DNA of 64,000 nucleotides. Source: the human T2T-CHM13v2.0 reference genome, Homo sapiens. Shown one piece after another: positions 15,830 to 17,125 of the stretch (position 1 is its first letter; each line of letters starts with the position of its first letter). The stretch spans positions 480,001 through 544,000 of the forward strand of contig CP086569.2 of assembly GCA_009914755.4 (NCBI GenBank), given 5' to 3'. Below the pieces are notes generated by a model. That model was given only the letters and a program-made list of their open reading frames with translations. It was not told the origin of the DNA and did not search any database. The translations under genes and the position numbers were made by a program.

Positions 15830-17125
15830 TTGGGGACCTGGTGTCCCCGGGAAAAACTTGGGGACCTGGTATCCCCGGGAGAGGCTTGGGGACCTGGTGT
15901 CCCGGGAGAGGCTTGGGTACCTGGTTTCTCTGGAAGAGGCTTGGACACCTGGTGTCCTGGGAGGGCCTTTGGGACCTGGTGTCCTGGGAGAGGCTTGGAG
16001 ATCTGTTGTCCTGGGAGAGGCTTGGGGACCTGGTGTCCCTGGAGAGGCTTGGGGACCTGGTGACCTTGGAGAGGCTTGGAGACCTGGTGTTCTGGGAGAG
16101 GCTTGGGGACCTGGTGTTCTGGGAGAGGCTTGGGGACCTGGTGTCTCTGGAAGAGGCTTGGACACCTGGTGACCCGGGAGGGCCTTGGGGATCTGGTGTC
16201 CCGGGAGAGCCTTGGGGACCTGGTGTCCTGGGAGAGGCTTGGGGACCTGGTGACCTTGGAGAGGCTTGGGGACCTGGTGTCCTGAGAGAGCCTTGGGGAT
16301 CTGGTGTCCCAGGAGAGGCTTGGGGACCTGGTGTCTCTGGAAGAGGCTTGGACACCTGGTGTCCTGGGGAGAGGCTTGGGGACCTGGTGTCCTGGGAGAG
16401 GCTTGGGGACCTGGTGTCCTGGGAGAGGCTTGGAGATCTGGTGAGCCGGGAGAGGCTTGGGGACCTGGTGTCCCGGGAGAGGCTTGGGGACTTGGTGTCC
16501 CGGGAGAGGCTTGAACACCTGGTGTCCCAGGAGAGGCTTGGGGACCTGGTGACCTTGGAGAGGCCTGGGGACCTGGTGACCCGGGAGAGCCTTGGGGACC
16601 TGGTGTCCTGGGGAGAGCCTTGGGGACCTGGTGACCTTGGAGAGGCTTGGGGACCTGGTGTCTCGGGAGTGCCTTGGGGACCTAGTGACCCGGGAGAGGC
16701 TTGGGGACCTGGTGTCCCGGGAGAGGCTTGGGGACCTGGTGTCCTGGGAGAGCCTTGGGGATCTGGTGTCCTGGGGAGAGGCTGGGGGACCTGGTGTCTC
16801 GGGAGAGAGCCTTGGGGACCTGGTGACCCGGGAGAGGCTTGGACACCTGGTGTCCCGGGAGAGGCTTGGGGACCTGGTGACCCGGGAGAGCCTTGGGGAC
16901 CTGGTGTCCTGGGGAGAGGCTGGGGGACCTGGTGTCTCGGGAGAGAGCCTTGGGGACCTGGTGACCCGGGAGAGGCTTGGACACCTGGTGTCCCGGGAGA
17001 GGCTTGGGAGCCTGGTGTCCCGGGAGAGCCTTGGGGACCAGGTGACCTTGGAGAGGCTTGGGGACCTGGTGATCTTGGAGAGGCTTGGGGACCTGGTGTC
17101 TCGGGAGAGGTTACGGGGGCTGGTT
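15830..17125. repeat. GC-rich 27-bp minisatellite (VNTR-type) in SHOX intron 5, about 48 units. Consensus on the + strand is GAGAGGCTTGGGGACCTGGTGTCCTGG. It ends about 340 bp upstream of the exon 6a acceptor.
   Basis: Tandem units are directly visible, e.g. gagaggcttggggacctggtgtcctgg gagaggcttggagatctgttgtcctgg gagaggcttggggacctggtgtccctg. It produces the artefactual 656-aa (-) and 759-aa (+) ORFs with GLGTW/SPRLS repeats. Confidence 0.95.

What the first reader, a model, noticed from the sequence alone, without database searches (positions are those of the whole stretch)
15830..17125. 1.3-kb GC-rich 27-bp VNTR about 340 bp upstream of the exon 6a acceptor
About 48 tandem copies of GAGAGGCTTGGGGACCTGGTGTCCTGG fill most of the distal part of intron 5. 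The array ends close to the branch-point/acceptor region of exon 6a (acceptor at 17466). Arrays like this in a high-recombination region are typically length-polymorphic. A G-rich array (a GGGG run in every unit) on the transcribed strand this close to a regulated terminal-exon choice (6a versus 6b) could influence splicing or form G4/R-loop structures. It is also the source of the largest spurious ORFs in the track (656 aa and 759 aa), which could mislead automated annotation.
Basis: seen in the sequence. Interest (0 to 1): 0.55.

Follow-up and report, generated by a model that had tools for sequence, protein, structure and literature searches.

The report
Ancient intronic minisatellite in SHOX
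About 47 copies of a 27-base G-rich unit really do sit in intron 5 of the growth gene SHOX, but this is an ordinary, old primate minisatellite whose copy number drifts, with no sign that it controls splicing, and it mainly matters as a trap for gene-prediction software.

Summary
A 1,286-bp array (15825-17110, 47.1 copies of a 27-bp unit, 84% matches) lies in SHOX intron 5 (14221-17467) and ends 357 nt before the exon 6a acceptor. The gene is SHOX, by an exact protein match.

Comparing assemblies shows what the array is. The same array, with the identical consensus, sits at the same place in chimpanzee (43 copies), orangutan (47 and 53) and macaque (106 and 121). Capuchins carry a 28-bp version (14-18 copies). 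Two suids have no array, only a single unit-like sequence. It is therefore an anthropoid minisatellite at least about 40 My old, born by local duplication and reshuffled by gains and losses of blocks of units. Two different chimpanzee haplotypes carry identical arrays, so it is not hypervariable.

The units contain no canonical G4 motif and no PRDM9 motif. The in-unit hairpin is decaying and there are no credible cryptic splice sites. The G-rich sense strand does meet R-loop prediction rules. Copy number and distance to the acceptor vary widely while exon 6a is conserved, which argues against tuned control of splicing.

The 656-aa and 759-aa ORFs are spurious, and a 564-aa antisense ORF even passes Pfam's collagen threshold. 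Human length polymorphism could not be tested.

The parts
15825..17110 (+). 27-bp minisatellite array: 47.1 copies, G-rich on the SHOX sense strand
   Evidence: TRF; sequence; unit segmentation; core 17-mer 30 hits against 0.01 expected
14221..17467 (+). SHOX intron 5 (GT...AG, 3,247 bp), which contains the array
   Evidence: Exon mapping; donor GT at 14221; acceptor AG at 17466-17467
14132..14220 (+). SHOX exon 5 (89 bp)
   Evidence: tblastn at 100%; sequence
15769..15803 (+). Conserved anchor (AGTGAAATTAGGC...GAGCCCG) immediately 5' of the array; the only part of intron 5 that aligns to the pig intron
   Evidence: blastn pig against human intron 5, 82.9% over 35 bp; alignment shows a single unit-like sequence following it in pig
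16775..17050 (+). Recent duplication of a 5-unit (138-bp) block inside the array; the first three units of the two copies are identical
   Evidence: Unit list; self-similarity peaks at multiples of the unit
15172..15564 (+). Cluster of G-run 'initiation zones' upstream of the array; together with the array (at least 40% G) they form the predicted sense-strand R-loop-forming region 15172-17130
   Evidence: QmRLFS-style scan written from memory of the published rules
17111..17467 (+). 357-nt CpG-rich spacer between the array and the exon 6a acceptor; the distal ~170 nt is conserved to macaque and capuchin, the proximal ~190 nt is missing in macaque
   Evidence: Multiple alignment; CpG observed/expected 0.63
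17468..17713 (+). Coding part of SHOX exon 6a (81 codons plus stop; OAR domain C-terminus)
   Evidence: Translation; exact protein match to SHOX_HUMAN
15724..18003 (+). Spurious 759-aa ORF running through the array and out of frame through exon 6a
   Evidence: ORF list; no Pfam family; no homologue among 5.8 billion proteins
15475..17445 (-). Spurious 656-aa antisense ORF
   Evidence: ORF list; no Pfam family
15738..17432 (-). Spurious 564-aa antisense ORF that passes Pfam's Collagen threshold (an artefact)
   Evidence: PF01391, 35.8 bits against cut-off 27.2; frame-shifting units in all species and a 28-bp period in capuchins

Best explanation
This is a non-functional, GC-rich minisatellite in intron 5 of SHOX, and it evolves essentially neutrally.

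Origin (inferred from the species comparison): a short intronic sequence of about 27-28 bp, containing a small inverted repeat (GGGGAC-CTGGT-GTCCCC), lay next to a conserved anchor. It was duplicated in tandem in an anthropoid ancestor more than about 40 My ago and expanded to 40-120 copies in catarrhines.

Dynamics: the pattern of unit changes is shown; the mechanism is inferred. Since then the array has changed by replication slippage and by unequal exchange or gene conversion that adds and removes blocks of one to several units. Individual units have meanwhile accumulated point changes, above all decay of the single CpG per unit.

Fate in the cell: it is transcribed as part of the SHOX pre-mRNA and removed with the intron.

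By-products of its composition, not functions: a G-rich sense strand that meets R-loop prediction rules and has weak G4 potential; a CpG-poor stretch between two CpG-rich flanks; and units free of stop codons in all six frames, which give long false ORFs. It is probably length-polymorphic in humans at a low to moderate level, but it is not hypervariable.
For: - The same array, with an identical TRF consensus, lies at the orthologous site in two chimpanzee assemblies (43.1 copies each), two orangutan assemblies (52.7 and 46.7) and two macaque assemblies (106.4 and 121.4). Two capuchin assemblies have a 28-bp version with 13.7 and 17.9 copies. Two suid assemblies have a 1.26-kb intron 5 with no array and no core hits.
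- Pig retains the anchor followed by a single unit-like sequence, so the origin was local and not an insertion.
- The array is heterogeneous: 34 distinct unit types among 47 human units. The same variant positions (4, 10-11, 13, 20, 23-24) and many exact unit types are shared from macaque to human.
- Turnover is by unit blocks. Human against chimpanzee shows 22 unit gaps, with 13 of 34 aligned units identical. The orangutan pair shows 18 gaps with 30 of 40 identical. The macaque pair shows 51 gaps. The unique flanks are about 97-99% identical between human and chimpanzee, against about 90% inside the array.
- CpG decay: the one CpG per unit is CG in 21 human units, TG in 13 and CA in 2. CpG observed/expected is 0.18, against 0.63-0.99 in the flanks.
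- No functional signature was found. There is no canonical G4 motif and no PRDM9 13-mer in the units. The hairpin decays without compensation: A.A at pair 12-20 in 125 of 406 units, and only 6 of 47 human units keep all Watson-Crick pairs. RNA folding gives z = -1.07. There are no strong cryptic splice sites and no Rfam family.
- Copy number (14-121) and distance to the acceptor (169-357 nt) are not conserved, while exon 6a is 100% conserved at the protein level.
- The SHOX splicing paper and the main SHOX review do not mention the intron or the repeat.
Against: - Persistence of a 1-3 kb array at one site for more than 25 My, with high copy number in all six catarrhine assemblies examined, could reflect some constraint. 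An identical consensus is nevertheless expected without selection, because independent mutations in single units do not change the majority base (my inference).
- The array is the strongest predicted sense-strand R-loop zone in the 64-kb window.
- It has 57.5 GGG-or-longer runs per kb, against 31 in the rest of the intron and 16 in the window. These are the kind of motif bound by hnRNP H/F (my own knowledge).
- A published 1.9-kb 'intron 5-exon 6a' region shows sex-biased methylation, and methylation at the exon 6a CpG sites validated by pyrosequencing correlates with SHOX expression (r = 0.70; PMC10997625). That region may reach into the array.
- An intronic VNTR can affect splicing of a neighbouring exon, as in ABCA7 (PMC5954066).
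- No functional data of any kind could be examined here.
Confidence: 0.72

Rival explanations
1. The array is a length-dependent cis-regulatory element of SHOX. Its roughly 47 G-run-bearing units in the pre-mRNA would recruit G-run-binding splicing factors, and/or its G-rich non-template strand would form R-loops or G4 structures. Either effect would slow RNA polymerase II or shape gene-body methylation, and so alter exon 6a/6b/7 usage or SHOX output.
For: - G skew is 0.37 and G content is 44.6% on the sense strand.
- It is the strongest + strand predicted R-loop zone in the window.
- It has 57.5 GGG-or-longer runs per kb, about 3.5 times the window average.
- A sex-biased differentially methylated region lies at 'intron 5-exon 6a', and methylation at the exon 6a CpG sites correlates with SHOX expression (PMC10997625).
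- ABCA7 provides a precedent: a 25-bp intronic VNTR whose length correlates with exon 19 skipping (PMC5954066).
Against: - There is no canonical G4 motif and G4Hunter scores are low.
- The array is 357 nt from the acceptor and upstream of both alternative terminal exons, so a pause there would not change the competition between exons 6a and 6b (my inference).
- Copy number varies about 8-fold and the spacing about 2-fold among primates with a conserved exon 6a. Suids make the same exon 6a with no array.
- The units decay freely at most variable positions.
- The ABCA7 array abuts the splice donor and ranges from 12 to 427 copies, which is unlike this one.
- Only exon 6a CpGs, not array CpGs, were validated in the methylation study.
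- The SHOX splicing literature does not mention the array.
Confidence: 0.15
2. The array is part of the machinery of pseudoautosomal recombination. It would act either as a multi-site PRDM9-binding minisatellite or, like the mouse mo-2 minisatellite, as a cis-acting platform that concentrates the proteins that make meiotic double-strand breaks.
For: - SHOX lies in PAR1 and contains one of the hottest known crossover hotspots. Many PRDM9-binding peaks in PAR1 are minisatellite-like arrays with periods of 4-101 bp (PMC4102438).
- In mouse, arrays of the 31-bp mo-2 minisatellite in the PAR determine hyper-accumulation of the REC114/MEI4/MEI1/ANKRD31/IHO1 break-forming proteins (PMC11039559).
Against: - No unit contains the PRDM9 13-mer CCNCCNTNNCCNC. 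The single nearby hit (17107-17119) is in the degenerate last unit, and the whole window has 8 hits against 3.7 expected.
- The array is only 1.3 kb. As I recall, mouse mo-2 clusters are far larger.
- Two chimpanzee haplotypes have identical arrays despite SNPs 1.26 kb upstream and 128 bp downstream. That is not expected for an array that is itself a strong break site.
- The position of the published SHOX hotspot relative to the array could not be established, because May et al. 2002 is not in the library.
Confidence: 0.04
3. The long ORFs are real, and the array encodes a repetitive (collagen-like) protein on the antisense strand or a repeat protein on the sense strand.
For: - The ORFs of 759, 656 and 564 aa exist.
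- The 564-aa antisense ORF passes Pfam's Collagen gathering threshold (35.8 against 27.2 bits, E = 7e-9).
- The 27-bp period is a multiple of three.
Against: - 11 of 47 human units are 28-29 bp long and shift the frame. Every species has such units, and the capuchin period is 28 bp.
- The ORFs persist only because the consensus unit has no stop codon in any of the six frames. I estimate this happens by chance about a quarter of the time for a 27-bp unit of 65% GC.
- The commonest unit variant (C to T at position 23) turns the 'collagen' glycine codon into arginine (my reading).
- The + strand ORF has no homologue among 5.8 billion proteins and matches no Pfam family.
Confidence: 0.01

Closest known systems
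Classical GC-rich human minisatellites/VNTRs of subtelomeric regions and PAR1 (Jeffreys-type loci such as MS32 and CEB1; named from my own knowledge)
   Same: Head-to-tail repeats of a 10-100 bp unit. A kilobase-scale array. GC-rich with marked strand asymmetry (G 44.6% against C 20.7%). Interspersed variant units. Change by gain and loss of unit blocks. Location in the recombination-rich PAR1, which is dense in such arrays.
   Different: It is old and degenerate (84% unit matches, 34 unit types among 47 units) and is conserved in place across anthropoids. It is identical in two distinct chimpanzee haplotypes, so it lacks the hypervariability of the classical loci. Human polymorphism was not measured.
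ABCA7 intron 18 VNTR (25-bp unit; PMC5954066)
   Same: A GC-rich intronic array of a ~25-bp unit within a gene that has alternative splicing of the neighbouring exons. It is the published precedent for length-dependent effects on a downstream exon.
   Different: The ABCA7 array starts at the splice donor itself, its units carry a donor dinucleotide, and alleles range from 12 to 427 copies. The SHOX array is 357 nt from the acceptor, has no credible splice sites and shows modest length change. No splicing association is known for it.
G4-forming minisatellites such as CEB1 and the insulin-gene VNTR (from my own knowledge)
   Same: G-rich strand with a G-run in most units.
   Different: There is no run of four G3+ tracts with loops of 1-7 nt anywhere in the array. 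Only long-loop or two-tetrad motifs occur, and the mean G4Hunter score is 0.72.
Immunoglobulin class-switch regions and other R-loop-forming G-rich intronic repeats (from my own knowledge)
   Same: An intronic, kilobase-scale tandem repeat that is G-rich on the non-template strand and meets the sequence rules for R-loop initiation and elongation.
   Different: There is no evidence of R-loops here, no known targeting enzyme, and a much lower G-cluster density. The resemblance is compositional only.
Mouse mo-2 minisatellite of the PAR (31-bp unit; PMC11039559, citing Acquaviva et al. 2020)
   Same: A ~30-bp-unit GC-rich minisatellite inside a pseudoautosomal region.
   Different: mo-2 is a shared family present in very large clusters at the PAR and at some autosome ends. 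This unit occurs only once in the 64-kb window, in a 1.3-kb array, and no binding data exist for it.

Membership tests
Minisatellite / VNTR | Head-to-tail tandem repeat with a unit of roughly 10-100 bp | tested here: met
   Period 27, 47.1 copies, score 1699; units listed
Minisatellite / VNTR | Array of about 0.5 kb to tens of kb at a single locus | tested here: met
   1,286 bp; all 30 core matches lie inside the array and none elsewhere in the 64 kb
Minisatellite / VNTR | Copy number varies among haplotypes of one species (the 'V' in VNTR) | tested here: inconclusive
   DNA from the human assemblies could not be fetched. Five human haplotypes have five different spans from the ATG to the SHOXb stop (27,157-27,932 bp), but the gene holds several other arrays. 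Two chimpanzee haplotypes have identical arrays. Sister species differ by 6 copies (orangutans) and 15 copies (macaques).
Hypervariable (Jeffreys-type) minisatellite | Very high germline mutation rate, so that independent haplotypes rarely share an allele | tested here: not met
   Chimpanzee Y-PAR and X-PAR haplotypes come, by my recollection of the assembly accessions, from different animals. They differ by 187 mismatches in 27.8 kb, with SNPs 1.26 kb upstream and 128 bp downstream of the array, yet the 1,176-bp arrays are 100% identical. This is one pair only and in chimpanzee, so the evidence is weak.
G-quadruplex-forming repeat | Four G3+ tracts separated by loops of 1-7 nt, or a G4Hunter score of about 1.5 or more | tested here: not met
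   0 canonical motifs in the array; 12 with loops up to 12 nt; 38 two-tetrad motifs; mean G4Hunter 0.72; 0.8% of 25-nt windows at or above 1.5
R-loop-forming sequence (QmRLFS-type definition) | A G-cluster initiation zone followed within 50 nt by an elongation zone of at least 100 nt with at least 40% G on the non-template strand | tested here: met
   12 initiation zones between 15172 and 16190 have elongation zones of 1,800-2,000 nt; it is the strongest + strand cluster in the window. The rules were implemented from memory, this is a prediction only, and actual R-loops cannot be tested here.
PRDM9-motif minisatellite of PAR1 (Hinch et al. 2014) | Multiple copies of the PRDM9 13-mer CCNCCNTNNCCNC within the array | tested here: not met
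   No match in any regular unit; one match at 17107-17119 in the degenerate last unit
Splicing-modifying intronic VNTR (ABCA7 type) | Allele length correlates with inclusion of a neighbouring exon | not testable with these tools
   This needs paired genotype and RNA data. Indirectly, copy number and spacing are unconstrained across primates with a conserved exon 6a, and the array has no strong splice-site-like motifs.
Protein-coding tandem repeat (collagen-like) | Reading frame preserved along the array and between species | tested here: not met
   11 of 47 human units shift the frame; the capuchin period is 28 bp; the Pfam collagen hit is therefore compositional
Structured RNA or conserved hairpin repeat | Base pairs maintained, with compensatory changes | tested here: not met
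   Pair 12-20 is A.A in 125 of 406 units with no compensating change; only 6 of 47 human units keep all five Watson-Crick pairs; RNA folding z = -1.07; no Rfam family

The most novel reading that the evidence does not exclude
The array could be a lineage-specific cis-element of SHOX. Its G-rich sense strand would form co-transcriptional R-loops, and/or its G-runs would bind splicing factors just upstream of exon 6a. Copy number, which ranges from 14 to 121 among primates and may vary among people, would then modulate terminal-exon choice, gene-body methylation or SHOX dosage. That would contribute to variation in height or to the variable penetrance of SHOX deficiency.
Probability: 0.07. Interest if true: 0.65.

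Novelty: new member of a known kind. Interest (0 to 1): 0.2.

Why it matters
SHOX dosage is a major determinant of human height, and much SHOX-related short stature remains unexplained at the sequence level. A repeat that altered SHOX isoform choice or expression would therefore be clinically relevant.

The evidence here points the other way. The array behaves like one of the many old minisatellites of PAR1.

Its practical importance is technical:
- It produces six-frame-open false ORFs, one of which passes a curated Pfam threshold as 'collagen'.
- It is hard to map with short reads.
- It carries 17 MspI sites, so it may contribute ambiguous reads to reduced-representation bisulfite data for the 'intron 5-exon 6a' region reported as differentially methylated.

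The comparison across assemblies also gives a clean example of how a minisatellite is born from a single-copy sequence and then maintained for tens of millions of years.

Tried and rejected
- **Fetching human haplotypes.** The look-up of encoding contigs with the SHOXa protein listed four assemblies that I recognise as human. It returned DNA only when two places were requested, and those two are the chimpanzee loci. Requests for 4, 5 or 10 places timed out.
- **Recovering haplotypes through mis-called proteins.** A search of 5.8 billion proteins with the 759-aa ORF gave no significant hit. This also shows that this false ORF has not spread into public protein sets.
- **Scanning contig collections with the 17-nt core.** The metagenome and prokaryote-genome scans gave only single chance matches in microbial contigs and no array.
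- **Literature.** No paper links SHOX with this repeat, and the unit sequence occurs in no searchable text. May et al. 2002, which maps the SHOX hotspot, is not held. The tandem-repeat splicing catalogue does not mention SHOX.
- **PRDM9 motif array:** rejected.
- **Canonical G4:** rejected.
- **Conserved hairpin or structured RNA:** rejected. The single-stranded DNA fold is only modestly better than shuffled controls (z = -2.32), which fits slippage-prone units.
- **Coding or collagen-like gene:** rejected.
- **Transposon-borne or inserted array:** considered unlikely, because pig has the flanking anchor plus one unit-like copy at the same place. No repeat-element library was available to test this directly.
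- **Mapping the published methylated region onto the window.** This needs hg19 exon coordinates that I hold only from memory, so any overlap with the array is left as 'possible'.
- **Explaining the 228-bp difference in gene span from GRCh38.** 228 is not a simple sum of 27-29-bp units, and the (TA)n tract in intron 3 is an equally good candidate, so no attribution was made.
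Full report
**1. The observation**

Tandem Repeats Finder reports a single array at 15825-17110: period 27, 47.1 copies, 84% matches, 1% indels, score 1699, consensus GAGGCTTGGGGACCTGGTGTCCCGGGA. The repeat is obvious in the raw sequence. A wrap-around alignment to the consensus gives 47 full units plus a partial one: 36 of 27 bp, 9 of 28 bp and 2 of 29 bp.

The 17-nt core, allowing one mismatch, occurs 30 times. All hits are on the + strand inside the array, against 0.01 expected from shuffles, and there are none elsewhere in the 64 kb.

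The array is 65% G+C, with G at 44.6% and C at 20.7%, giving a GC skew of 0.37. Runs of GGGG or longer number 39, so they are in most units but not all.

**2. The context**

The window carries SHOX. A SHOXa sequence recalled from memory mapped at 100% onto five exon blocks. The exact 292-aa sequence is on record as SHOX_HUMAN / SHOXa, shared by the Homininae.

| Feature | Coordinates | Source |
|---|---|---|
| Exon 5 | 14132-14220 | |
| Intron 5 (3,247 bp, GT...AG) | 14221-17467 | |
| Exon 6a start | 17468 | |
| Exon 6b, in an antisense Alu, encoding [14 protein letters not shown] | 31859-31903 | |

The array fills 39.6% of intron 5 and ends 357 nt before the acceptor. The window is not chimpanzee, because the unique flanks differ by about 1-3% from both chimpanzee assemblies. 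I take it to be human.

**3. What the array is: comparative evidence**

I fetched the gene from other assemblies through its protein and ran TRF on intron 5 of each. Species names for the accessions are partly from my memory.

| Assembly | Copies | Note |
|---|---|---|
| This window | 47.1 | 27-bp period |
| Chimpanzee, two assemblies | 43.1 each | identical consensus |
| Orangutan, two assemblies | 52.7 and 46.7 | identical consensus |
| Macaque, two assemblies | 106.4 and 121.4 | identical consensus |
| Capuchin, two assemblies | 13.7 and 17.9 | 28-bp period; short-read assemblies, so these may be underestimates |
| Suids, two assemblies | none | intron 5 is 1.26 kb, with no core hits even at 3 mismatches |

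The only pig-human similarity in the intron is a 35-bp anchor at human 15769-15803, directly 5' of the array. In pig, a single loosely unit-like sequence follows it.

Taken together, the array arose by local tandem duplication in an anthropoid ancestor and expanded in catarrhines. Using divergence dates from general knowledge, that is more than about 40 My ago.

**4. How it changes**

- The array is heterogeneous, with 34 distinct unit types among 47 human units.
- The same positions vary in all six catarrhine assemblies (4, 10-11, 13, 20, 23-24), and many exact unit variants are shared from macaque to human. The ancestral array was therefore already mixed.
- Unit-level alignments show block gains and losses:

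| Pair | Unit gaps | Identical aligned units |
|---|---|---|
| Human vs chimpanzee | 22 | 13 of 34 |
| The two orangutans | 18 | 30 of 40 |
| The two macaques | 51 | 22 of 88 |

- A 5-unit (138-bp) block at 16775-16912 is repeated at 16913-17050, and the first three units of the two copies are identical.
- The single CpG per unit is intact in 21 human units and has become TG in 13 and CA in 2. CpG observed/expected is 0.18 in the array, against 0.63-0.99 in both flanks. That is the signature of germline-methylated, unconstrained DNA.

The array is not hypervariable. The chimpanzee Y-PAR and X-PAR haplotypes come, by my recollection of the accessions, from different animals. They differ by 187 mismatches and 51 gaps over 27.8 kb, with SNPs 1.26 kb upstream and 128 bp downstream of the array. 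Their 1,176-bp arrays are nevertheless identical, while the 82-bp and 132-bp arrays in the same gene differ between them.

**5. Tests of the proposed mechanisms**

- **G4.** No canonical G3+N1-7 motif occurs in the array. There are 12 long-loop and 38 two-tetrad motifs, the mean G4Hunter score is 0.72, and 0.8% of 25-nt windows reach 1.5. G4 potential is weak.
- **R-loops.** A QmRLFS-type scan, with rules written from memory, finds the strongest sense-strand predicted R-loop zone of the window at 15172-17130, and the array supplies the elongation zone of at least 40% G. This is a prediction only.
- **Splicing.**
  - The array is 357 nt from the acceptor, far outside the usual branch-point range.
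  - It has no MAGGTRAG-type donor, and none of its three CAG|G sites has a pyrimidine tract.
  - G-runs are dense: 57.5 per kb, against 31 in the rest of the intron and 16 in the window.
  - Across primates, however, copy number spans 14-121.
  - The array-to-acceptor distance spans 169-357 nt, and macaques lack about 190 bp of the spacer.
  - Suids have no array at all. Exon 6a is 100% conserved at the protein level in all of these species.
  - The array lies upstream of both alternative terminal exons, so a pause there would not change their competition (my inference).
- **Recombination.** No unit has the PRDM9 13-mer, even though PRDM9 peaks in PAR1 are often minisatellites (PMC4102438).
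- **Structure.** Each unit has a 5-bp inverted repeat, which is 6 bp in the first human units and in the capuchin 28-bp unit. It decays without compensation: A.A at pair 12-20 in 125 of 406 units. RNA folding is unremarkable (z = -1.07). Single-stranded DNA folds slightly better than shuffles (z = -2.32), which fits a slippage-prone unit. Rfam finds only Alu-derived SRP matches elsewhere in the window.

**6. The ORFs**

The 759-aa (+) and 656-aa (-) ORFs are real as open frames. A 564-aa antisense ORF passes Pfam's Collagen threshold at 35.8 bits against a cut-off of 27.2.

They are artefacts:
- The consensus unit lacks stop codons in all six frames.
- 11 of 47 human units shift the frame, as do units in every other species.
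- The capuchin period is 28 bp.
- The commonest unit variant converts the 'collagen' glycine codon to arginine.
- The + strand ORF has no homologue in 5.8 billion proteins.

**7. Literature**

The SHOX splicing paper (PMC3063249) and the main review (PMC4971310) do not mention intron 5 or a repeat. No searchable paper contains the unit sequence.

PMC10997625 reports male-dominant methylation over a 1.9-kb 'intron 5-exon 6a' region. Methylation at the exon 6a CpG sites validated by pyrosequencing correlates with SHOX expression. The array has 17 MspI sites and may contribute to that RRBS signal, but I could not map the coordinates reliably.

ABCA7 (PMC5954066) shows that an intronic VNTR can affect splicing. 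That array abuts the donor and ranges from 12 to 427 copies.

**8. Human polymorphism**

This was not testable. DNA from the human assemblies could not be retrieved. The span from the ATG to the SHOXb stop is 27,704 bp here and 27,932, 27,674, 27,452 and 27,157 bp in four human assemblies. The gene body is therefore length-polymorphic, but it contains several other arrays, so no attribution is possible.

**9. Verdict**

The feature is real and is an ordinary, old, moderately unstable GC-rich minisatellite of PAR1. My estimates are:

| Reading | Probability |
|---|---|
| Neutral minisatellite | about 0.72 |
| Length-dependent regulatory role (R-loop or G-run based) | about 0.15 |
| Recombination-platform role | about 0.04 |
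| Protein-coding | about 0.01 |

Interest is low. The value of the finding is as an annotation and mapping hazard, and as a tidy case of the birth and maintenance of a minisatellite.

Noticed in passing
window 40767-41348: A CCTCC/CCCCT-rich array carries three exact PRDM9 13-mer matches (40807, 41008, 41198) and the densest minus-strand predicted R-loop cluster in the window. It is a better candidate than the 27-bp array for the PRDM9-binding minisatellites described in PAR1 (PMC4102438).
   Followed up: partly
window 20259-21402; L001 16800-18026; L002 16740-17990: An 82-bp x 14 array with an Alu-derived unit (97% matches) lies downstream of exon 6a. Unlike the 27-bp array, it differs between the two chimpanzee haplotypes: 15.0 copies against 13.0 plus 2.0.
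   Followed up: partly
window 28915-29608; L001 25482-28178; L002 25439-27736: A 132-bp (264/396-bp higher-order) Alu-derived array has 5.2 copies here but 17.7 and 14.7 copies in the two chimpanzee haplotypes. This is a large species and haplotype difference between exons 6a and 6b.
   Followed up: no
window 31859-31903: SHOX exon 6b ([14 protein letters not shown]) lies inside an antisense Alu. Chimpanzee has V instead of I at the third-last residue.
   Followed up: partly
window 4200-31903 against the assemblies: The span from the ATG to the SHOXb stop is 27,704 bp in this window and 27,932, 27,674, 27,452 and 27,157 bp in four human assemblies. That is five haplotypes with five lengths, so the window matches none of the four listed.
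   Followed up: partly
L218 15003-15171 and L219 14965-15133, against window 17111-17300: Both macaque assemblies lack about 190 bp of the spacer next to the array, which brings the array to 169 nt from the exon 6a acceptor.
   Followed up: partly
L001 14257-14279: A 23-bp insertion/deletion difference between the two chimpanzee haplotypes lies just after the SHOXa stop codon, in the exon 6a 3' UTR.
   Followed up: no
window 9432-9935, 61870-62984, 50786-51759, 1-575 and 1522-2893: Other large tandem arrays are present: (TA)n of about 255 copies in intron 3, a 19-bp x 59 array, a 97/197-bp x 10 array, and long TC-rich arrays upstream of exon 2. They show how repeat-dense this PAR1 segment is.
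   Followed up: no
window 4850-4997 and 31066-31213 (- strand): The only Rfam matches at gathering score are Metazoa_SRP hits that correspond to Alu elements, not to genuine SRP RNA genes.
   Followed up: no
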